Shown in pieces: positions 2,806 to 12,117 of a DNA stretch of 64,000 nt; positions within the stretch are counted from its first letter, which is position 1; each line of letters opens with the position of its first letter. The notes beneath the pieces were generated by a model. That model was given only the letters and a program-made list of their open reading frames with translations. It did not search any database and was not told the DNA's origin. This DNA comes from a virus (Duplodnaviria; Heunggongvirae; Uroviricota; Caudoviricetes), in IMG/VR virus record IMGVR_UViG_2974574300_000001, positions 1-64,000 of that record; one strand, given 5' to 3'. Made by a program: the position numbers and the translations under genes.

Positions 2806-2882
2806 GGTTATGTAGTTTAATTTGGTTAAAATACTCCCTGTCACGGGAGATGATGAGGGTTCAAATCCCTTCGTAACCGCCA
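2806..2882 (+). tRNA. tRNA-Asp (anticodon GTC)
   Basis: acceptor GGTTATG/CGTAACC, canonical Asp anticodon loop CTGTCAC (weak stem), T-arm GAGGG-TTCAAAT-CCCTT, CCA. Confidence 0.6.
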
Positions 2883-3310
2883 ATTTTGAGAGGGCTATTT
2901 AGCCCCTCCCTTAAAGAGTTCTTACGAGTATTCTTTAAAGGAGCAGAAGACCAAATTCAGCAAGTTACTTAAAATTTCAAGCCAATTTAATTTTGAAAAA
3001 TTTAAAACTTGGTCTGGCTCAACAAATTTACAGAAGACCATTTACAGCAAAACTTAAACAATCTATTTCTCGGTAAAGAAAAGGAGAAGGTTCGATTCCT
3101 TCACTCGGCAGGTGTCGAGTTGGTGTAATGGTAGCACTTAAGATGATAAACAACGGTCTGGTAATTATCTTTGTAGATAAGTTATTAAGCTTACCTGTGA
3201 GTATGCGACCACAAAGGGTGAAAGGGTAAATTCTAGATTTAAACCCAAAAAGGCACATCGCTACAGACCTTAAGCAAGTCTGGGTAGCTTATCTACAAAG
3301 ATAATTTAAT

Positions 3311-3469: not shown

Positions 3470-3544
3470 TGTGGGTTAGCATAAATGGTAATGCAAACGG
3501 CTGATAACCGTTAGAAGAGGGTTCGATACCCTCACCTACAACCA
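3470..3544 (+). tRNA. tRNA-Ile (anticodon GAT)
   Basis: acceptor TGTGGGT/ACCTACA, anticodon stem AACGG/CCGTT loop CTGATAA, T-arm GAGGG-TTCGATA-CCCTC, CCA. Confidence 0.7.
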
Positions 3545-3559
3545 ATTTCAATAAAGTTG

Positions 3560-3588
3560 TTGACATTGAGATGTGACTACTTTATAGT
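3560..3588 (+). promoter_or_regulatory. sigma70-like promoter (TTGACA-17-TATAGT) inside tRNA array
   Basis: TTGACA 3560-3565, 17 nt spacer, TATAGT 3583-3588. Confidence 0.6.
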
Positions 3589-3880
3589 AACTAAAATACT
3601 TCAGAATATGTATAATTCAAACACCAATACATGAGCGTTAGACGTAACACAATGTGGGGAAATTTGTTGTACATATTCTGAATAGTTTTCGTTGCGTAGC
3701 GTCTATTTTGCAAATTTAAAATAAATGCAAACGACAATGTTTTTCTGGCAGTAGCTTGATAGGCTAAACACCAGTGAGGTCTTCCAATCCCTCATCAAAG
3801 AATTTGGCGTACTAGCCACGGTATGATTAATAAGGTGGGCATCTTTAAGGGCTTTCTAAGAGAGTCTTTAAAGATAATTA

Positions 3881-3962
3881 CGGGGCGTATCTCAGCGGTC
3901 TTCTAAACCGCCGTTAACCGAGTAAGTGGAGTATGCGGGTTCGAGTCCTGCCGCCTCGACCA
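3881..3962 (+). tRNA. non-canonical tRNA-like gene (anticodon-like hairpin with TCT, no clear D-arm)
   Basis: acceptor CGGGGCG/CGCCTCG, T-arm GCGGG-TTCGAGT-CCTGC, CCA; only a 5 bp/7 nt hairpin GCGGT-CTTCTAA-ACCGC placed where the D-arm should be, followed by 23 nt extra region. Confidence 0.45.
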
Positions 3963-4104
3963 ATTAGTTAGCAGATTACTTAGACGACCTAAGCGGGTCT
4001 TCCTGTAGGGAGGTGGTCTGTATCTCATGTTTTCCAGAACATGTAAATAATCTGAGAAGGGGCTTTACAGTGTTGAGATAATACGGTAAGCTTCGAATTA
4101 TAGT

Positions 4105-4187
4105 ATGGGACGATGTTAAGACTCTAAGGCATGAGCAACGGCTTCCAACACCGTTTCAAAGGGGTTCAACTCCTCCGTCCCATGCCA
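4105..4187 (+). tRNA. non-canonical tRNA-like gene (aberrant D region; anticodon uncertain, possibly CCA)
   Basis: perfect 7 bp acceptor ATGGGAC/GTCCCAT, T-loop TTCAACT, CCA; 26 nt between acceptor and candidate anticodon hairpin ACGGC-TTCCAAC-ACCGT. Confidence 0.45.
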
Positions 4188-4200
4188 AAGTCTTATTAGG

Positions 4201-4288
4201 GGTAGGTAGCGGCTAATGGTAGCCAAACTGTCTTGAAAACAGTTGCCACTGTAGAGATACGGTGAGGGTTCGACTCCTTTACTTACCG
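4201..4288 (+). tRNA. tRNA-Ser (anticodon TGA), type II
   Basis: acceptor GGTAGGT/ACTTACC, 3 bp D-stem, anticodon stem ACTGT/ACAGT loop CTTGAAA, long variable arm, T-loop TTCGACT; CCA not fully encoded. Confidence 0.7.
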
Positions 4289-4545
4289 CCTAATAAGATT
4301 TAAAGCCAAGCTTCATTCGGATGTTGCTTTGGTATCCCTCGTGTATTGTCGTACACACTGATAAAACACCTAGTAGGTGTCACGGAGAAGAGATAATATC
4401 AAGCTCTCCAAAGGTTCTAGTCACCGGATTAAACAAGACTATGCAAAGACCTTTTTAGGTCTTTTTAGAGGGCTTCTAAGGTTATTACAGCTTGTTGTGG
4501 AACCTTGTTGCTTAGGTTCTTAGAAGTTCTCTAAAAAGATTTAAT

Positions 4546-4623
4546 GGGAGATTGACGGTAATTGGTAAACCTACCTCGCTTAGAACGAGGTGTTTGAGGG
4601 TTCGAATCCCTTGTCTCCTACCA
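4546..4623 (+). tRNA. tRNA with anticodon TAG (Leu by anticodon) but short variable arm
   Basis: acceptor GGGAGAT/GTCTCCT, anticodon stem CCTCG/CGAGG loop CTTAGAA, 5 nt variable loop, T-arm GAGGG-TTCGAAT-CCCTT, CCA. Confidence 0.6.
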
Positions 4624-4794: not shown

Positions 4795-4869
4795 GCATCC
4801 ATAGTTTAAACGGGAAAATTACAGTCTTCCAAACTGAGGTTGAGGGTTCGATTCCCTCTGGATGCTCCA
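4795..4869 (+). tRNA. tRNA-Trp (anticodon CCA)
   Basis: acceptor GCATCCA/TGGATGC, anticodon loop CTTCCAA, T-arm GAGGG-TTCGATT-CCCTC, CCA. Confidence 0.7.
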
Positions 4870-5207: not shown

Positions 5208-5283
5208 AGCGGTATAGCATAACTGGCAATGCAGCAGTCTCTGAAGCTGTCCTATTAAGGTTCAAATCCTTATGCCGCTGCCA
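5208..5283 (+). tRNA. tRNA-Gln (anticodon CTG)
   Basis: acceptor AGCGGTA/TGCCGCT, anticodon loop CTCTGAA, T-arm TAAGG-TTCAAAT-CCTTA, CCA. Confidence 0.6.
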
Positions 5284-5314
5284 CTTCTAAGGGTTCTTAC
5301 GAGAGTCCTTAAAT

Positions 5315-6842: not shown

Positions 6843-8444
6843 ATGGACTTAAATGCTGTTAAGCAGAAGCGAGTGGAAGATGTTAGGAAAGTCCTAGCTG
6901 GAGAGTTGGGGCTTTCTGATGAAGTAAAAGAAATTATCAAATCATTCGGTAAAGACCCCTCTAAATTCCTTCCAACTCAAATTCTGACTTTATTAAGATA
7001 CACACCAGACCAAGTTCGCCTTATCTTTAAATTGATGACTGATAAGAACTATGTAGCCCCTCAGCCGGGTTCTCAAGAGGTCTTTTTAAACACTAATGCT
7101 GACTTGGTTCTCTATGGTGGTGCTGCTGGTGCTGGTAAGACTGCTGCATTGTTAATGGACTCTTTAAGATTTATTGAAGACCCTAACTATAATGCTGTGT
7201 ATTTCCGTCGAAACACAACACAGTTACAAGGTGGTTTATGGCCTGCTGCAAAGAAACTATTTGGTAAGTTTGGTGGGATTCCTCACGAGCAGAAAATGAC
7301 TATCACATTCCCTTCTGGGGCGACTATCAAGTTTACCTATCTAGAACTTGAAAAGCACGCTGAAGGTCATCAGGGTATTGAATACTCAGCTATTTACTTT
7401 GACGAAGGTACACACTTCTCTGCTTCACAGATTTCATACCTACAAACCCGTCTACGTTCTGGTGCTGAAGGTGATTCATACATGAAGATTTCCATGAACC
7501 CAGACAGAGACCACTTTATTTATGATTGGGTAGAGCCATTCTTAGATGAAGGAGGTTATCCAGACCCTGAAAAGTGTGGTCGTATTCGTTGGTATGTAAT
7601 GAATGATGGTGTGATGGTTTCTGATTGGGAGAGAGACAAGATTCTTGAAATGTTCCCTCTTGAGATTCCTCAAACATACACCTTTATCTCTGGTACGATT
7701 GATGATAACCCAATCCTTGACTTCTTAGAACCAAAGTATCGCGGTAAGCTTGAAAACAACACCCCTGTAAACGTTGCAAGACTTCGTTTCGGTAACTGGA
7801 AGGCTCGTGCAGAAGGTTCAAACTATTGGCAAAGACAATGGTGTGAGATTGTTGATTCACTTCCAGAAGATGTATTCGATGTTAGAGCATGGGACTTAGC
7901 AGCAACTTTACCATCTGAGATTAACCCTAATCCAGACTGGACAGCGGGTGTTAAGATGGGTAAATCTAAAAAAGACGGTTGCTATTATATCATTGATGTA
8001 GTAAGATTTAGAGATAGACCCTCTGGAGTCGAAACACAAATTAATTTGACTGCTGAAAGTGACGGTAAGCGAACTGGTATTTTTATCCCTCAAGACCCAG
8101 GCGCTGCTGGTAAATCCTACGCAACATCCCTCATCAGGAAACTTGCCGAGAAAGGCTATCGTGCAAGAGCTAAACCAACAAATAAAGATAAAGTTACCCG
8201 ATTTGCGGGGTTTTCTTCTGCTTCTGAAGCTGGACTTGTAAAAGTTTTGAGAGGTAGTTGGAATGAAGCTTACTTTCAAGAACTTGAAGGCTTTTGTGGT
8301 GATGGTAAAACTAAAGATGACCAAGTGGATGCTACCAGTGATGCTTTCAACAGTCTTAACGAAGTTAAATTATTCAAGCCACCATCAATGGGTGCTCACA
8401 CAGACTTAGTGAGAGGAAATCCATATGAGGGGCTTAGACGTTGA
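6843..8444 (+). CDS. terminase large subunit
   Basis: Walker A-like VLYGGAAGAGKTAAL near N-terminus, acidic nuclease-type motifs in C-terminal half; GGAGG RBS before ATG 6843. Confidence 0.85.
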   Translation: MDLNAVKQKRVEDVRKVLAGELGLSDEVKEIIKSFGKDPSKFLPTQILTLLRYTPDQVRLIFKLMTDKNYVAPQPGSQEVFLNTNADLVLYGGAAGAGKTAALLMDSLRFIEDPNYNAVYFRRNTTQLQGGLWPAAKKLFGKFGGIPHEQKMTITFPSGATIKFTYLELEKHAEGHQGIEYSAIYFDEGTHFSASQISYLQTRLRSGAEGDSYMKISMNPDRDHFIYDWVEPFLDEGGYPDPEKCGRIRWYVMNDGVMVSDWERDKILEMFPLEIPQTYTFISGTIDDNPILDFLEPKYRGKLENNTPVNVARLRFGNWKARAEGSNYWQRQWCEIVDSLPEDVFDVRAWDLAATLPSEINPNPDWTAGVKMGKSKKDGCYYIIDVVRFRDRPSGVETQINLTAESDGKRTGIFIPQDPGAAGKSYATSLIRKLAEKGYRARAKPTNKDKVTRFAGFSSASEAGLVKVLRGSWNEAYFQELEGFCGDGKTKDDQVDATSDAFNSLNEVKLFKPPSMGAHTDLVRGNPYEGLRR

Positions 8445-8460: not shown

Positions 8461-9927
8461 ATGGCAGATATTACAGAAACACAAGAAAGCTTACCACCAT
8501 TTAGAATGGGTGAAGTAGGTTCTTTGGGTCTGAAGGTTAAGAATGGAAGAATCTATGAAGAACCTCGTCAGGCACTAAGGTTCCCTGAAAGTATTAAAAC
8601 TTTCCAATTAATGATGCGTGACCCTGCTGTAGCAGCATCTGTAAATATTATTAAGATGTTTGTCAGAAAAGTCAACTGGAGATTCGTACCTCCAAAGGGA
8701 AAAGAGCAAGACCCTAAAATGCTTGAAAGAGCAGACTTCTTTAATTCTTTAATGGATGACATGGAGCATGATTGGGCAGATTTTATTAATTCTGTAATGT
8801 CATTCTGCACTTATGGGTTCTGTGTTAACGAAAAAGTTTATAAGAAGCGTCAGGGTAAGAAAGGGAAGTACCAATCAAAATTTGATGATGGTTTAATCGG
8901 ATGGGCTAAATTGCCAATCAGAAACCAGTCAACGCTTGATAAGTGGTACTTTGACGAAGACTTTAGAAAAGTTACTGGTGTTAGACAGAATCTGAGAAAT
9001 GTTTCACATATTGCTGGAGCAATTAATCTCGGAGAAAGACCACTAACAAGAAAACTTCCACGAGCTAAATTCATGCTGTTTAAGTATGACGATGAATATG
9101 GAAACCCAGAAGGTCGTTCACCATTACTTAATGCTTATGTACCGTGGAAGTATAAAGTTCAGATTGAAGAATATGAAGCTGTTGGTGTTTCAAGAGACTT
9201 GGTGGGTATGCCAAAGATTGGTTTACCACCAGATTATCTGGATGAAAATGCAGAACCTGAAAAGAAAGCTTTCGTACAATACTGCAAAACTGTTGTCAAT
9301 GACATGATTGCTAATGACAGAGCAGGTTTAATCTGGCCTAGATATATTGACCCAGACACTAAAGAGGATATTTTTGAGTTCTCATTAGTCTCTAGACAGG
9401 GTGCTAAAGCATACGATACAGGTTCTATTATTGATAGATATTCCAAGCAGATTATGATGGCATTTATGTCAGATGTTCTTGCTATGGGTCAGTCAAAATA
9501 CGGTTCATTCTCTCTTGCAGATTCTAAGACAAGCTTACTAGCGATGTCGGTAGATATTCTGCTGAAGCAAATTAAGAACGTAATTAACCGTGATTTAGTT
9601 GCACAGACTTATGCTCTTAATATGTGGGATGATGAAGAACATGTACAAATCACATATGATGATATCGAAACTCCAGACCTTGAAGCAATTGGTTCTTATA
9701 TTCAGAAGACTGTTGCAGTAGGTGCTTTGGAAGTTGACAAAGAGCTATCTAACAAGCTTAGAGAGCATATTGGTCTTCCTCCTGCTGATGAGTCTCAGCC
9801 AGTATCTGAAAAGCTTTCTCCAAATAGCCAAAGCCGTTCAGGAGATGGCTATAAGACTGCTGGAGAAGGTACTGCAAAGACACCTTCAGCGAAAGACCCA
9901 AGCACAGCAAATAAGGCAAATAAATAA
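8461..9927 (+). CDS. portal protein (putative)
   Basis: about 490 aa ORF immediately after large terminase, acidic/Ser-rich C-terminus; assignment by gene order. Confidence 0.55.
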   Translation: MADITETQESLPPFRMGEVGSLGLKVKNGRIYEEPRQALRFPESIKTFQLMMRDPAVAASVNIIKMFVRKVNWRFVPPKGKEQDPKMLERADFFNSLMDDMEHDWADFINSVMSFCTYGFCVNEKVYKKRQGKKGKYQSKFDDGLIGWAKLPIRNQSTLDKWYFDEDFRKVTGVRQNLRNVSHIAGAINLGERPLTRKLPRAKFMLFKYDDEYGNPEGRSPLLNAYVPWKYKVQIEEYEAVGVSRDLVGMPKIGLPPDYLDENAEPEKKAFVQYCKTVVNDMIANDRAGLIWPRYIDPDTKEDIFEFSLVSRQGAKAYDTGSIIDRYSKQIMMAFMSDVLAMGQSKYGSFSLADSKTSLLAMSVDILLKQIKNVINRDLVAQTYALNMWDDEEHVQITYDDIETPDLEAIGSYIQKTVAVGALEVDKELSNKLREHIGLPPADESQPVSEKLSPNSQSRSGDGYKTAGEGTAKTPSAKDPSTANKANK

Positions 9928-10770: not shown

Positions 10771-12117
10771 ATGAGTTCGAATATCTTCAGACTTGCTGAT
10801 AGATTATTCAACCAACCTTTACTAGCCACTGAATCATTAGCTCACTCAGCAGCAACTTATGTGAATAACAGATTGCTGGGTGATGTCCAAGCAGCAGTAA
10901 ACTTTGATAAACCCAAAGGTGAAGCAAGAAGTCTTTTAAAAGTAAAAGATGACATTGCTATTATCCCTATTATGGGTGGTTTAACCCATCGTATGACATT
11001 CATTGATGCAATGTGTACAGGTGGATTAAGCTCTTATGAGGGTTTACGTAGAGGCTTTGACGAAGCTTTAGCAGATGAGTCAATTAAGACTATTGTTCTG
11101 CACATCGATTCTGGTGGTGGTGAAGCTTCAGGTTGCTTTGAATTAGCACGTCACATTATGGCTTCAAGAGGCCAAAAGAAAATTATTGCTTATGTAGATG
11201 AGTTCGCTTGTTCCGCTGCATACGCTCTTGCATCTTCTGCTGAAGAAATTATTGCATCACCAGATGCAGATGTTGGTTCTATTGGTGTAATTATGGTTCA
11301 TCAGGAATTAACTAAAGCATTTGAAAAGAATGGCGTAACAATTAACGTCATCAAAGCTGGTGAGTTTAAAGGTATGGGTTCACCATTCCAAGCACTTTCA
11401 GAAGAAAGCAAAGAAAGACTTCAAAAGAGAATTAATGATACCTACGCAACCTTTACAGGTTTTGTAGCTGAATCTCGTAATCTCTCTGAAGAAGCTGTAA
11501 AGAATACTGAGGCGAATGTTTATTCTGCTCAGGAAGCTCTTGAACTTGGTTTAATTAACTCAATCATGTCTCAAGATGATTTCTTAAATTACTTACAAGG
11601 TTCTGAAGAGGCTCCTGTAAGTTTAAACGTTAACAATTCAGGTGAAGAAATGACTGAACAAGAAAAGCAAGAACTAGAAGCTTTGCGTCTTCAGGTTGCT
11701 CAAATGAAAGCTAAAGAACAGGAAGCTGCTTTGTCAGATTTGACTAATAAGATTTCTGCTTCTGCTGAAGCTTTTGGATTTGATGCAAAAGAAGCTGCAA
11801 CGACTATTTTAGGTGCTGGTCTTGATAACCCTCTGAGTGTTCTGTTTATGAATGCTATGGAAGGTGCTAACCAGAAACTTAATGAAACTATCGCGTCCCA
11901 TGCTTCTGCAATGGAAGAAAAAGAATCAGAAATTACCAAGCTGAAAGAAACTGCTGGTGCTGTTCTTGAACATTCCAATGCTATGGAAGAAGTGGGTAAT
12001 GACGGCGAAGCTGATTTGGTTGAAGAAGAAAAAGAACCAGCTAAGAATGCTTCCGAAGACACCGCTGAACAACGCAAACTGGCTCTCCAGAATGCTCTAA
12101 AATCTCTTATCAAATAA
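10771..12117 (+). CDS. prohead protease (S49/SppA-like) fused to scaffold-like coiled-coil domain
   Basis: IDSGGGEASG and CSAAYALASSAEEIIASPDADVGSIGV resemble S49 serine peptidase core; C-terminal Ala/Glu/Lys-rich helical region. Confidence 0.7.
   Translation: MSSNIFRLADRLFNQPLLATESLAHSAATYVNNRLLGDVQAAVNFDKPKGEARSLLKVKDDIAIIPIMGGLTHRMTFIDAMCTGGLSSYEGLRRGFDEALADESIKTIVLHIDSGGGEASGCFELARHIMASRGQKKIIAYVDEFACSAAYALASSAEEIIASPDADVGSIGVIMVHQELTKAFEKNGVTINVIKAGEFKGMGSPFQALSEESKERLQKRINDTYATFTGFVAESRNLSEEAVKNTEANVYSAQEALELGLINSIMSQDDFLNYLQGSEEAPVSLNVNNSGEEMTEQEKQELEALRLQVAQMKAKEQEAALSDLTNKISASAEAFGFDAKEAATTILGAGLDNPLSVLFMNAMEGANQKLNETIASHASAMEEKESEITKLKETAGAVLEHSNAMEEVGNDGEADLVEEEKEPAKNASEDTAEQRKLALQNALKSLIK

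What the first reader, a model, noticed from the sequence alone, without database searches (positions are those of the whole stretch)
3881..4187. Two adjacent non-canonical tRNA-like genes lacking a normal D-arm
Both 3881-3962 and 4105-4187 have a solid 7 bp acceptor stem, a proper T-arm and encoded CCA, but the region where the D-arm should be cannot be folded into a D stem-loop. 3881 has an anticodon-like hairpin (loop CTTCTAA) displaced toward the 5' end plus a 23 nt extra region. 4105 has 26 nt between acceptor and candidate anticodon arm. They may be unusual functional tRNAs (Arg and Gly are otherwise missing from the array), decoys for anticodon nucleases, or tRNA-like regulatory RNAs.
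Basis: seen in the sequence. Interest (0 to 1): 0.65.

Follow-up and report, generated by a model that had tools for sequence, protein, structure and literature searches.

The report
Rewired arginine and tryptophan phage tRNAs
Two unannotated genes in this Felix O1-like phage's tRNA cluster look like working tRNAs for arginine and tryptophan; the arginine one belongs to a widespread phage family whose core is wired in a different strand order from every textbook tRNA, so standard tRNA finders miss it.

Summary
Both 3881-3962 (E1) and 4105-4187 (E2) are conserved, structured, tRNA-like genes that ARAGORN misses. The window is a Felixounavirus. Its 22 standard tRNAs cover every amino acid except Arg and Trp.

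E1 carries anticodon UCU (Arg). It belongs to a family of at least 76 distinct sequences found in unrelated phage lineages and in metagenomes. All helices covary. A 3-bp helix (nt 11-13 with 40-42) encloses the anticodon arm and is followed by a D-loop-like segment (UAAKUGGAGUAU, including the ArgRS determinant A20). I read this as a strand-swapped D arm. The architecture occurs almost only with Arg anticodons (UCU, CCU, ACG). In sister phages the same slot holds a canonical tRNA-Arg(UCU). AGA is the phage's commonest Arg codon.

E2 is specific to Ounavirinae. It is a tRNA-Trp(CCA), not Gly, with its helices in the normal order. It has an invariant 7-nt insertion before a 3-bp D stem and a possible 8/4 acceptor/T arrangement.

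I found no published description. Nothing here has been tested experimentally.

The parts
3881..3962 (+). E1: non-canonical tRNA-Arg(UCU) gene, 82 nt including the encoded CCA
   Evidence: Sequence. Own covariance model R1 scores 103 bits and gives a single hit in the window. Rfam tRNA scores 31.7 bits with the D arm deleted. 261 phage records hold it.
3881..3887 (+). E1 acceptor stem, 5' strand (pairs with 3952-3958)
   Evidence: 6 of 7 pairs have compensatory changes across 29 sequences.
3888..3890 (+). E1 invariant U8-A9-U10 connector
   Evidence: Invariant in alignment A1.
3891..3893 (+). E1 CUC: first strand of the long-range 3-bp helix (D-stem equivalent). It pairs with 3920-3922 and encloses the anticodon arm.
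   Evidence: With both strands left free in the search pattern, 76 distinct true members give CUC/GAG 68, CAC/GUG 5, CGC/GCG 3 and no mismatch. Mutual information of 12:41 equals the full column entropy. CCC/GGG occurs in two L091 copies.
3895..3911 (+). E1 anticodon arm GCGGU-CUUCUAA-ACCGC; anticodon UCU at 3902-3904
   Evidence: All 5 stem pairs covary. Loop variants in the family keep U33, C35, U36 and A37.
3912..3919 (+). E1 linker CGUUAACC (consensus CGUUAAYC) between the anticodon stem and the second helix strand
   Evidence: Nearly invariant in the main subfamily. It is replaced by 3-5 nt (UCA, AGUC, AAAA) in short-linker relatives.
3920..3922 (+). E1 GAG: second strand of the long-range helix
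   Evidence: Same evidence as for 3891-3893.
3923..3934 (+). E1 D-loop-like segment UAAGUGGAGUAU (G18-G19 at 3928-3929, A20 at 3930, terminal A-U before the T stem)
   Evidence: GGA and the terminal AU are invariant. The assignment to D-loop positions is inference.
3935..3951 (+). E1 T arm GCGGG-UUCGAGU-CCUGC
   Evidence: 3 of 5 pairs have compensatory changes.
3952..3962 (+). E1 acceptor 3' strand (3952-3958), discriminator A (3959), CCA (3960-3962)
   Evidence: Discriminator in the family: G 50, A 21, other 2. CCA is encoded in 55 of 73.
4105..4187 (+). E2: non-canonical tRNA-Trp(CCA) gene, 83 nt including the encoded CCA
   Evidence: Sequence. 234 phage records hold it, all in the Felix O1 group and related Ounavirinae. 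Covariation is shown.
4105..4112 (+). E2 acceptor 5' strand: 7 bp with 4177-4183, or 8 bp if G4112 pairs with C4176
   Evidence: Pairs 1:72 and 2:71 covary. G8 and C65 are invariant, so 8/4 versus 7/5 cannot be decided.
4112..4121 (+). E2 invariant connector GAUGUUAAGA (a canonical tRNA has 2 nt here)
   Evidence: Invariant in all 12 distinct sequences, including the Yersinia and Pectobacterium phages.
4122..4135 (+). E2 D arm CUC-UAAGGCAU-GAG
   Evidence: The middle pair is U-A in 7 and A-U in 5 sequences. One pair shows C-G to U.G.
4137..4155 (+). E2 anticodon arm AACGG-CUUCCAACA-CCGUU; anticodon CCA at 4145-4147. The 9-nt loop is equivalent to a C.A-closed 7-nt loop UUCCAAC.
   Evidence: 4 of 5 stem pairs covary. 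The loop CUCCAAA of other alleles is identical to that of E. coli tRNA-Trp.
4160..4176 (+). E2 T arm (A)GGGG-UUCAACU-CCUC(C)
   Evidence: One pair changes G-C to U-A. A49.C65 is always a mismatch in the 7/5 reading.
4177..4187 (+). E2 acceptor 3' strand, discriminator G (4184), CCA (4185-4187)
   Evidence: Sequence. G73 and A1-U72 match E. coli tRNA-Trp.

Best explanation
Both elements are most likely working phage tRNAs that supply the two isotypes missing from the array.

E1 is a tRNA-Arg(UCU) with a rewired core.
- After U8-A9-U10, the strand CUC runs, through one A, straight into the 5' strand of the anticodon stem.
- After the anticodon arm and an 8-nt linker, GAG pairs back to CUC, so this 3-bp helix encloses the anticodon arm and can stack on it as a D stem does.
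- The chain then continues as a D-loop-like segment (U-A14-A15-K-U-G18-G19-A20-G-U-A21-U48) that leads directly into the T stem.
- The helices and conserved core nucleotides of an L-shaped tRNA are all present, but three strand connections differ (9->22, 43->10, 21->49). In canonical tRNA crystal structures these three pairs of residues lie next to each other.

Proposed function of E1 (inferred, not shown):
- Host enzymes would process it.
- Host ArgRS would charge it through A20, C35, U36 and A/G73.
- It would read AGA/AGG, which the phage uses heavily and the host reads poorly.

E2 is a tRNA-Trp(CCA).
- Its four helices are in the normal order.
- It has an invariant 7-nt insertion (GUUAAGA-type) between the acceptor and D stems.
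- The D stem is 3 bp.
- Either it has three A.C mismatches (10.25, 31.39, 49.65), or the acceptor/T arrangement is 8/4.
- It keeps the TrpRS determinants: the CCA anticodon, G73 and A1-U72.

Shown here: conservation, base-pair covariation, the restriction to Arg anticodons, and the same-slot exchange with a canonical gene. Inferred: the three-dimensional equivalence, charging, and use on the ribosome.
For: Gap in the array:
- The array has 22 standard tRNAs for 18 amino acids. Only Arg and Trp are absent.

E1 helices:
- All four helices are supported: 99% paired, 153 double-change cells, 0/500 shuffles.
- With the long-range helix positions left free in the search patterns, 76 true members are all complementary with three pair types. 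The 8 non-complementary hits lack anticodon and T arms altogether.

Link to arginine:
- The architecture is tied to arginine. The anticodons are UCU and CCU in the main family and ACG in L091, L051 and L125.
- The single exception (UAU, L093) has U20-U21 instead of A20.
- G18-G19-A20 are invariant, and the discriminator is A or G in 71 of 73. This matches the bacterial Arg identity set of A20, C35, U/G36 and A/G73 (PMC9976931).

Exchange with a canonical gene:
- In pinkbiff, identical flanks hold a canonical 77-nt tRNA-Arg(UCU).
- Among Felix O1-like phages, about 109 records carry the canonical cassette and about 98 carry E1.
- A canonical tRNA-Arg(UCU) is found in the same fetched locus in only a few of 133 E1 loci. 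Clear cases are L091 and L030; in L062 the E1-type copy is CCU, and its other UCU gene is itself atypical.

Demand for the codon:
- AGA makes up 41.7% of Arg codons in the window's ORFs.

Spread:
- E1 occurs in Ounavirinae, Demerecviridae, Asteriusvirus jumbo phages, Stephanstirmvirinae, Vequintavirinae, a Vibrio phage and many metagenomes.

Linker:
- Short-linker relatives (3-4 nt) show that the 43->10 connection can be short, as the model predicts.

E2:
- Covariation is seen in the D, anticodon, T and acceptor helices.
- The anticodon loop CUCCAAA, GAGC-A26, A1-U72 and G73 are the same as in E. coli tRNA-Trp, whose sequence was verified.
- It is conserved across the Ounavirinae genera Felixounavirus, Mooglevirus and Suspvirus, an unclassified Ounavirinae phage of Pectobacterium, and a related Yersinia phage.
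Against: - No expression, processing, charging or decoding data exist.
- In the main family only the middle pair of the 3-bp helix varies. The outer C-G pairs are invariant.
- RNAfold and RNAalifold do not predict the long-range helix. RNAalifold instead proposes a 2-bp CG/CG mini-hairpin in the linker that competes for one G.
- The single-sequence folding energy of E1 is no better than that of shuffles (z = 0.04).
- One phage contig (L091) carries canonical tRNA-Arg(UCU) genes as well as three E1-type genes, so the two types are not strictly interchangeable.
- The three-dimensional argument rests on my knowledge of canonical tRNA geometry, not on a model.
- For E2, three non-Watson-Crick pairs and a 7-nt insertion in the core could impair function. 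No canonical tRNA-Trp was found at the same slot for comparison.
Confidence: 0.68

Rival explanations
1. E1 is a functional tRNA-Arg that simply lacks a D arm, like mitochondrial tRNA-Ser(AGY). On this view the 23-nt region is an unstructured or locally folded variable loop, and there is no long-range helix and no D-loop equivalent.
For: The Rfam tRNA model aligns it this way. RNAfold and RNAalifold fold the 23-nt region locally. D-armless tRNAs are known to work in mitochondria (PMC2797822).
Against: Positions 12 and 41 covary perfectly across 76 sequences, with U-A, A-U and G-C (plus C-G in L091) and no single-sided change. The 23-nt region is almost invariant in sequence and contains an A-A-N-N-G-G-A motif that is typical of D loops. 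Bacterial EF-Tu and ribosomes are not adapted to armless tRNAs.
Confidence: 0.12
2. The elements are tRNA mimics that are not used in translation. They would act as decoys or sponges for host tRNA-targeting defence nucleases or other tRNA-binding factors, or as regulatory RNAs.
For: Phage tRNAs are known to counter tRNA-cleaving defences (eLife 2023 PMC10264068; Nat Commun 2024 PMC11555353, both cited). The E1 anticodon loop is identical to that of E. coli tRNA-Arg(UCU). E1-type genes coexist with canonical tRNA-Arg(UCU) genes in L091. Spread across unrelated phages suggests a selectable accessory function.
Against: E1 alternates at the same slot with a bona fide tRNA-Arg(UCU) in about half of Felix O1-like phages. 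The window phage has no other tRNA-Arg although AGA is its top Arg codon. The same architecture carries three different Arg anticodons and keeps A20, A/G73, a 12-bp acceptor/T branch, the T loop and CCA. These features matter for charging and EF-Tu, not for an anticodon-loop decoy.
Confidence: 0.13
3. They are decaying tRNA pseudogenes or recombination scars in a tRNA array that is churned by homing endonucleases.
For: The array contains real debris: an orphan T arm at 3086 and a tRNA-Asp with a 1-nt deletion. HNH endonuclease genes sit next to E1 in several phages.
Against: Compensatory substitutions maintain every helix in both families. E1 is conserved at 82-90% identity in unrelated phage families and in environmental contigs. 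The unpaired segments are nearly invariant. A pseudogene would not show this pattern.
Confidence: 0.02

Closest known systems
Canonical bacterial and phage tRNA-Arg(UCU) (E. coli argU; the allele at the same slot in Escherichia phage pinkbiff)
   Same: 7-bp acceptor stem, 5-bp T stem with a UUCGA(G/A)U loop, 5-bp anticodon stem, loop CUUCUAA identical to argU, U8-A9, a G18-G19-A20 motif, A/G73 and CCA. It occupies the same genomic slot.
   Different: There is no D hairpin between the acceptor and anticodon arms. The D-stem equivalent is a long-range 3-bp helix that encloses the anticodon arm, and the D-loop-like segment lies between that helix and the T stem. An extra 8-nt linker is present. 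The Rfam model must delete the D arm, and ARAGORN misses it in 132 of 133 loci.
D-armless mitochondrial tRNAs (mammalian mt tRNA-Ser(AGY); nematode and mite minimal tRNAs, PMC2797822)
   Same: No D hairpin in the usual place.
   Different: Those tRNAs are shortened (about 50-65 nt), have lost the D-loop/T-loop elbow contacts and need co-evolved factors. E1 is longer than a normal tRNA (82 nt), keeps D-loop-like and T-loop consensus nucleotides, and must use a bacterial translation system.
8/4 tRNAs and allo-tRNAs of bacteria and phages (Mukai et al. 2017, PMC5389517)
   Same: E2 can be drawn with an 8-bp acceptor stem and a 4-bp T stem (12 bp in total). 8/4 tRNAs are documented in phage tRNA clusters.
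   Different: The published cases are Ser and His (and Sec/Cys-like), with tRNA-Sec-like long D stems and mostly long V arms. E2 is Trp, has a 3-bp D stem, a 5-nt variable loop and a 7-nt insertion before the D stem. The 8th pair (G8-C65) is invariant, so it is untested.
E. coli tRNA-Trp (trpT)
   Same: A1-U72, G73, D-stem 3' strand plus A26 (GAGCA), an anticodon stem of similar sequence, loop CUCCAAA, a 5-nt variable loop.
   Different: The connector is GAUGUUAAG instead of U8-A9. E2 has A10.C25, C31.A39 and A49.C65 mismatches. It is not detected by ARAGORN or by the Rfam tRNA model.
tRNA-like domain of tmRNA and plant-virus tRNA-like structures (TYMV TLS; PMC9976931)
   Same: These are precedents for an L-shaped, aminoacylatable tRNA mimic built with non-tRNA strand connectivity. 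Rfam gives E1 a weak tmRNA hit through the acceptor and T arm only (22 bits).
   Different: tmRNA has no anticodon arm and carries an mRNA-like domain. A TLS is the 3' end of a genome with a pseudoknotted acceptor stem. E1 is a free-standing tRNA-sized gene with a normal acceptor stem and a complete anticodon arm.
Permuted tRNA genes of Cyanidioschyzon merolae (from my own knowledge, not tested here)
   Same: The order of tRNA segments differs from the canonical order.
   Different: There the gene is circularly permuted and processing restores a canonical mature tRNA. In E1 the 5' and 3' acceptor ends are already terminal, and removing any contiguous segment cannot give a cloverleaf.

Membership tests
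tRNA (Rfam RF00005, canonical cloverleaf) | Scores above the family gathering threshold | tested here: inconclusive
   E1 scores 31.7 bits against a gathering score of 29, but only when a 341-nt stretch is searched. In the 5-kb search only a weak tmRNA hit was reported. E2 has no RF00005 hit at E <= 10.
tRNA (Rfam RF00005, canonical cloverleaf) | D stem-loop between the acceptor stem and the anticodon arm | tested here: not met
   E1 has 7 nt (UAUCUCA) there, and the covariance model deletes 15 D-arm positions. E2 has a 3-bp D arm, which meets this feature, but it is preceded by 9-10 nt instead of 2.
tRNA (Rfam RF00005, canonical cloverleaf) | 7-bp acceptor stem, 5-bp anticodon stem with a 7-nt loop (U33, purine 37), 5-bp T stem with a TPsiC-type loop | tested here: met
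   E1 has all of these, and they covary. E2 has the acceptor stem. Its anticodon loop is 9 nt, or 7 nt closed by C.A. Its T stem is 4 bp plus A.C.
Bacterial tRNA-Arg identity (ArgRS substrates) | A20 in the D loop, C35, U36 or G36, A73 or G73 (PMC9976931) | tested here: met
   E1 family: G-G-A is invariant, C35 and U36 are invariant in the main family, ACG variants have G36, and the discriminator is A or G in 71 of 73. That the A after GG occupies the structural position of A20 is inference.
Bacterial tRNA-Arg identity (ArgRS substrates) | Actual arginylation by ArgRS | not testable with these tools
   This needs an in vitro charging assay or in vivo charged-tRNA sequencing.
Bacterial tRNA-Trp identity (TrpRS substrates) | Anticodon CCA and G73 (plus A1-U72 in E. 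coli; determinants from my own knowledge, E. coli sequence verified) | tested here: met
   In E2, CCA and G73 are invariant. Position 1:72 is A-U in 8, G.U in 2 and G-C in 2 of 12 sequences.
D-armless (mitochondrial-type) tRNA | The D arm is replaced by a short unstructured connector, with loss of the D-loop/T-loop interaction nucleotides | tested here: not met
   E1 keeps a covarying 3-bp helix and an invariant AA..GGA segment downstream of the anticodon arm.
8/4 tRNAs / allo-tRNA (PMC5389517) | 8-bp acceptor stem plus 4-bp T stem | tested here: inconclusive
   E2's G8 and C65 can pair, and the T stem then has 4 bp. Both positions are invariant, so there is no covariation for or against this.
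8/4 tRNAs / allo-tRNA (PMC5389517) | tRNA-Sec-like long D stem with a tetraloop, and a long V arm (allo-tRNA) | tested here: not met
   E2 has a 3-bp D stem with an 8-nt loop and a 5-nt variable loop.
tmRNA | tRNA-like domain plus an mRNA-like tag reading frame and pseudoknots | tested here: not met
   The weak hit (22.1 bits against a gathering score of 47) spans the whole model with everything but the acceptor and T arm deleted. The element is 82 nt long, and ARAGORN finds no tmRNA in the window.

The most novel reading that the evidence does not exclude
E1-type genes would be a topological isomer of tRNA. It would have the same L-shaped body and the same ArgRS, EF-Tu and ribosome interfaces, but three altered strand connections. 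It would have spread horizontally among unrelated phages because the rewired core makes an otherwise normal tRNA-Arg invisible or resistant to a host (or phage) factor that recognises the canonical D-arm/anticodon-arm connectivity, for example a tRNA-targeting defence nuclease. E2's invariant insertion would be a second, independent solution of the same kind for tRNA-Trp.
Probability: 0.2. Interest if true: 0.92.

Novelty: new variant of a known kind. Interest (0 to 1): 0.78.

Why it matters
If E1-type RNAs are charged and used by ribosomes, the cloverleaf strand order is not required for tRNA function in a bacterial translation system. A naturally rewired core would work with standard ArgRS, EF-Tu, RNase P and ribosomes. 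That bears on tRNA structure-function rules, tRNA evolution and the design of orthogonal tRNAs.

Practical consequences:
- ARAGORN misses these genes, and deposited records mostly leave them unannotated, mark them as 'tRNA-OTHER', or call ORFs over them.
- The tRNA repertoires of several hundred sequenced phages are therefore under-counted. These include Felix O1-like therapeutic candidates, T5-like Klebsiella phages, phi92-like phages, Vequintavirinae (the rV5 subfamily) and PBECO4-like jumbo phages.
- Statements such as 'lacks tRNA-Arg/Trp' are wrong for them.

The natural two-allele polymorphism at one slot in Felix O1-like phages (canonical versus rewired tRNA-Arg) gives a ready-made isogenic test. 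It could also show whether unusual tRNA architectures are a counter-measure to tRNA-targeting immunity.

Tried and rejected
- Standard cloverleaf after coordinate shifts: ARAGORN and Rfam with permissive thresholds find none for either element.
- tmRNA or permuted tmRNA: only weak sub-threshold hits through the T arm and acceptor stem. Rejected.
- Intron-containing or gene-permuted tRNA: no contiguous deletion restores a cloverleaf, and the termini are already the acceptor ends. Rejected by inspection.
- Gly identity for E2: rejected. The register that keeps U33 and A37 gives CCA, the loop matches E. coli tRNA-Trp, and tRNA-Gly(UCC) exists at 4795.
- ATG/CAT as the E2 D stem: not conserved in the Yersinia and Pectobacterium phage sequences. 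Rejected in favour of CWC/GWG.
- Tertiary covariation involving the variable linker and D-loop positions of E1 (nt 38, 46, 47): none found.
- E1 and E2 as members of one family: the E1 model R1 does not hit E2. They share only a GUUAA-NN-(stem strand)-UAA..GG motif, which may reflect origin or a shared structural solution. Unresolved.
- A shared mobile HNH cassette as the vehicle of E1 spread: the HNH genes next to E1 are homologous between the two Demerecviridae phages (51% identity) but unrelated to the Felix O1 one. Not supported as a single cassette.
- One loose E2 pattern scan of viral contigs returned only chance matches. A second scan had the wrong spacing and added nothing new.
- Literature: ten full-text searches and three papers read, plus Mukai 2017. 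None gave a description of either element. The library is incomplete, so prior description cannot be excluded.
Full report
**Context.** The window is a Felix O1-like phage (Felixounavirus). Region 3500-4600 is 99.9% identical to Salmonella phage FM4b and 95% identical to Felix O1. ARAGORN finds 22 tRNA genes between 2154 and 6398. They cover 18 amino acids, and only Arg and Trp are absent.

**Observation.** Both elements are exactly as described.
- E1 (3881-3962) reads CGGGGCG-UAUCUCA-GCGGU-CUUCUAA-ACCGC-CGUUAACCGAGUAAGUGGAGUAU-GCGGG-UUCGAGU-CCUGC-CGCCUCG-A-CCA.
- ARAGORN does not call E1.
- In a 5-kb Rfam search only a weak tmRNA hit through the acceptor and T arm appears.
- In a 341-nt search the tRNA model reaches 31.7 bits (gathering score 29), but only by deleting the 15 D-arm positions and inserting 20 nt in the variable region.
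- E2 (4105-4187) gets only a tRNA-Sec match of 16.9 bits.

**E1 is one of two alleles at the same slot.** In Escherichia phage pinkbiff the flanks are identical, but the slot holds a canonical 77-nt tRNA-Arg(UCU) that ARAGORN recognises. Using cassette plus flanks as the query, about 109 phage records carry the canonical cassette and about 98 carry E1 at 80% coverage or more. Roughly half of the Felix O1 group thus has E1 where the other half has an ordinary tRNA-Arg(UCU).

**E1 belongs to a widespread family.** blastn finds it in 261 phage records at 82-100% identity. These come from unrelated lineages:
- Felixounavirus;
- Klebsiella phages Sugarland and Spivey and Serratia phage Kamaji (Demerecviridae);
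- PBECO4-like jumbo phages (Asteriusvirus);
- phi92-like phages (Stephanstirmvirinae);
- KNP2 and W70 (Vequintavirinae);
- a Vibrio phage.

Pattern scans of IMG/VR, metagenomes and genome bins add many environmental contigs. The element lies in large tRNA arrays in some loci and stands alone in others. ARAGORN calls it in only 1 of 133 loci.

**Structure of E1.**
- On 29 distinct sequences the acceptor, anticodon and T stems are 99% paired. There are 153 cells changed on both sides, no shuffle out of 500 reaches this, and slid controls give 34-48% pairing.
- Besides the anticodon loop, the invariant single-stranded parts are G7-UAUC-N-CA and CGUUAAYCG-N'-GUAAKYGGAGUAU.
- The two N positions covary.
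- I scanned metagenomes and genomes with all three positions of both strands left free. The 76 distinct true members read CUC/GAG (68), CAC/GUG (5) and CGC/GCG (3), with no mismatch.
- The 8 non-complementary hits have no anticodon stem or T arm and are chance matches.
- Mutual information for 12:41 equals the full column entropy, and every other top-scoring pair is a predicted helix pair.
- L010 and L011 share an acceptor stem but have A-U and G-C respectively, so the changes are recurrent.
- A covariance model built from the family (R1) finds exactly one copy in the window (103 bits; ordinary tRNAs score 32 bits or less; E2 is not hit).
- In other loci it finds further copies with CCC/GGG.

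Nucleotides 11-13 therefore pair with 40-42, and this 3-bp helix encloses the anticodon arm.

**Model (inference).**
- The CNC strand is continuous with the 5' strand of the anticodon stem through one nucleotide. This is the relation of the D-stem 3' strand and residue 26 in a normal tRNA.
- The GN'G strand is followed by U-A-A-K-U-G-G-A-G-U-A-U. This reads like residues 13, A14, A15, 16, 17, G18, G19, A20, 20a, 20b, A21, and then U48 just before the T stem.
- U8 and A9 are also present.
- All conserved core nucleotides of an L-shaped tRNA are therefore there, but three connections differ (9->22, 43->10, 21->49).
- From my knowledge of canonical tRNA structures these are pairs of neighbouring residues (9 contacts 23; 45 contacts 10-25; 21 and 48/49 lie next to 8), so the fold looks geometrically feasible.
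- The model predicted that the 43->10 linker need not be long. Relatives with the same topology have linkers of 3-4 nt: UCA in L051, AGUC in L112, AAAA in L125.
- All of them keep the UAA..GGA motif and a terminal A-U before the T stem.
- The descriptor used to find some of these required complementarity, so they are not independent evidence for the helix. The reversed-sequence control gave 0 hits in 2.2 Mb.

Caveats on the model:
- Energy-based folding does not predict the 3-bp helix.
- RNAalifold proposes a competing 2-bp CG/CG hairpin in the linker.
- No 3D model was computed.

**Identity and function of E1.**
- The family's anticodon loops are CUUCUAA (62), CUUCUAC (13), UUUCUAA (3), UUUCUAC (2), UUCCUAA (2), UUCCUAC (1) and CUCCUAA (1). 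These give UCU or CCU, with U33, C35, U36 and A37 invariant.
- One marine contig (L091) has three copies, with CCU, UCU and ACG. L051 and L125 have ACG.
- All of these are arginine anticodons.
- The only other anticodon found with this topology is UAU (L093), and that copy has U-U after the GG instead of A.
- G18-G19-A20 are invariant, and the discriminator is G (50) or A (21) in 71 of 73 sequences.
- This matches the bacterial arginine identity set of A20, C35, U/G36 and A/G73 (PMC9976931).
- CCA is encoded in 55 of 73.
- In the window's ORFs AGA is the commonest Arg codon: 41.7% of Arg codons, 17.8 per 1000. From established knowledge, AGA is rare in E. coli and Salmonella.
- The phage has no other tRNA-Arg in the 64-kb window.

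Together with the same-slot exchange, this makes a decoding tRNA-Arg the most economical reading. Against strict equivalence, L091 has two canonical tRNA-Arg(UCU) genes as well.

**E2.**
- blastn finds it in 234 records. Those I examined belong to the Ounavirinae genera Felixounavirus, Mooglevirus and Suspvirus, an unclassified Ounavirinae phage of Pectobacterium, and a Yersinia phage.
- Twelve distinct sequences support four helices in the normal order: 99.6% paired, 8 pairs with changes on both sides, and slid controls of 35-53%.
- The D stem alternates between CUC/GAG and CAC/GUG.
- The anticodon stem is AACGG/CCGUU, GUAAG/CUUAC or GUAGG/CCUAC.
- The T stem alternates between GGGG/CCUC and UGGG/CCUA.
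- The 10 nt between the acceptor and D stems (GAUGUUAAGA) are invariant.
- The loop is C-YUCCAAM-M. The register that keeps U33 and A37 gives anticodon CCA.
- I compared E2 with E. coli tRNA-Trp, whose sequence I verified against 5,426 genomes. E2 shares A1-U72, G73, GAGC-A26, the loop CUCCAAA (pinkbiff and Moogle alleles) and a 5-nt variable loop.
- It differs by the 7-nt insertion and by three A.C mismatches (10.25, 31.39, 49.65).
- Alternatively G8-C65 pair, which gives an 8/4 acceptor/T branch. That form is documented in phages, but for Ser and His (PMC5389517). Both positions are invariant, so this is undecided.
- E2 is best read as the array's tRNA-Trp. Charging is inferred.

**Rivals.**
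- Pseudogenes are excluded by the compensatory changes and by conservation across families.
- A plain D-armless reading of E1 does not explain the 12:41 covariation or the invariant D-loop-like segment.
- A decoy or sponge role cannot be excluded. It could even be the selective reason for the odd architecture, because phage tRNAs are known to counter tRNA-cleaving defences (references). The retained charging determinants, the three Arg anticodons and the allelic exchange all point to a translating tRNA.

**Novelty.** Ten full-text searches and four papers gave no description of either element. Public records leave E1 unannotated, call ORFs over it, or label it 'tRNA-OTHER'. I rate it a new variant of a known kind: a tRNA with a rewired D region, and a tRNA-Trp with a core insertion. 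The caveat is that the literature library is incomplete and nothing has been tested experimentally.

Noticed in passing
window 2806-2882: The tRNA-Asp(GUC) gene has a 1-nt deletion in the C run of the anticodon stem (CTCCC versus CTCCCC in pinkbiff and Felix O1). This leaves a 4-bp stem and an 8-nt loop, and ARAGORN reports anticodon 'gtca'. It could be a sequencing error, a damaged gene or a frameshift-type tRNA.
   Followed up: partly
window 3040-3310: An orphan T arm (GAAGG-TTCGATT-CCTTC at 3086) has no matching acceptor 5' strand. It is followed directly by a tRNA-5'-half-like sequence (GGTGTCGAGTTGGTGTAATGGTAGCAC). Next comes a long inverted repeat (about 3165-3185 with 3285-3308) that encloses about 100 nt. 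No Rfam hit. This may be tRNA debris or another structured RNA.
   Followed up: partly
window 3963-4104: The 142-nt spacer between E1 and E2 folds better than shuffles (-39.9 kcal/mol, z = -2.2) and is conserved in pinkbiff. In Felix O1 an HNH endonuclease gene is inserted here.
   Followed up: partly
window 3842-3876, 4440-4545, 5283-5312: Recurrent palindromic motifs rich in CTTCTAAG / CTTAGAAG / TCTTTAAAG lie just upstream of tRNA genes, including E1. They may be processing hairpins or promoter/terminator elements of the array.
   Followed up: no
window 3912-3925 and 4115-4127: E1 and E2 share the motif GUUAA-NN-(3-nt stem strand)-UAA..GG: CGUUAACC-GAG-UAAGUGG in E1 and AUGUUAAGA-CUC-UAAGG in E2. 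GUUAA resembles the D-stem 5' strand plus A14-A15 of canonical tRNAs (GUUC-AA). Both oddities might therefore derive from partial duplication or rearrangement of a D arm, or might use the same extra structural module.
   Followed up: partly
L091 (metagenome contig Ga0255783_10000721) 1-12056: A phage-like contig has 30 tRNA genes and a permuted tmRNA in 12 kb. They include two canonical tRNA-Arg(UCU) genes and three rewired Arg tRNAs: CCU at 4102-4183, UCU at 8598-8679 and ACG at 11201-11282.
   Followed up: partly
L093 3368-3451: A gene 10 nt upstream of an E1-type tRNA-Arg has the same rewired topology (helix CGG/CCG, 11-nt linker). Its anticodon is UAU, and it has GG-U-U instead of GG-A. 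It may be a rewired tRNA-Ile(AUA).
   Followed up: no
L112 6452-7310: An E1-type gene is split inside its T loop by an insertion of about 790 nt. The 3' part of the T arm, the acceptor strand and CCA reappear near 7280-7305. The insertion contains a second, short-linker rewired tRNA-Arg(UCU) at 7097-7173.
   Followed up: partly
L004 1291-1800, L009 1284-1847, L003 1965-2357: HNH endonuclease genes start within a few nucleotides of the 3' end of E1 in Sugarland, Kamaji and Felix O1. The first two are homologous (51% identity) and the Felix O1 one is unrelated. Homing endonucleases may drive the cassette exchanges in these arrays.
   Followed up: partly
window 4105-4187: In the 7/5 reading all three non-Watson-Crick pairs of E2 are A.C (10.25, 31.39, 49.65). 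Each would become a standard pair after C-to-U or A-to-I editing. In the Yersinia and Pectobacterium phage versions 31.39 is C.C instead.
   Followed up: no
window 3590-3692: A long near-perfect hairpin (TTCAGAATATGTA...TACATATTCTGAA) lies in the 335-nt gap between tRNA-Ile and E1. The only hits are weak miRNA-family matches, which are spurious.
   Followed up: no
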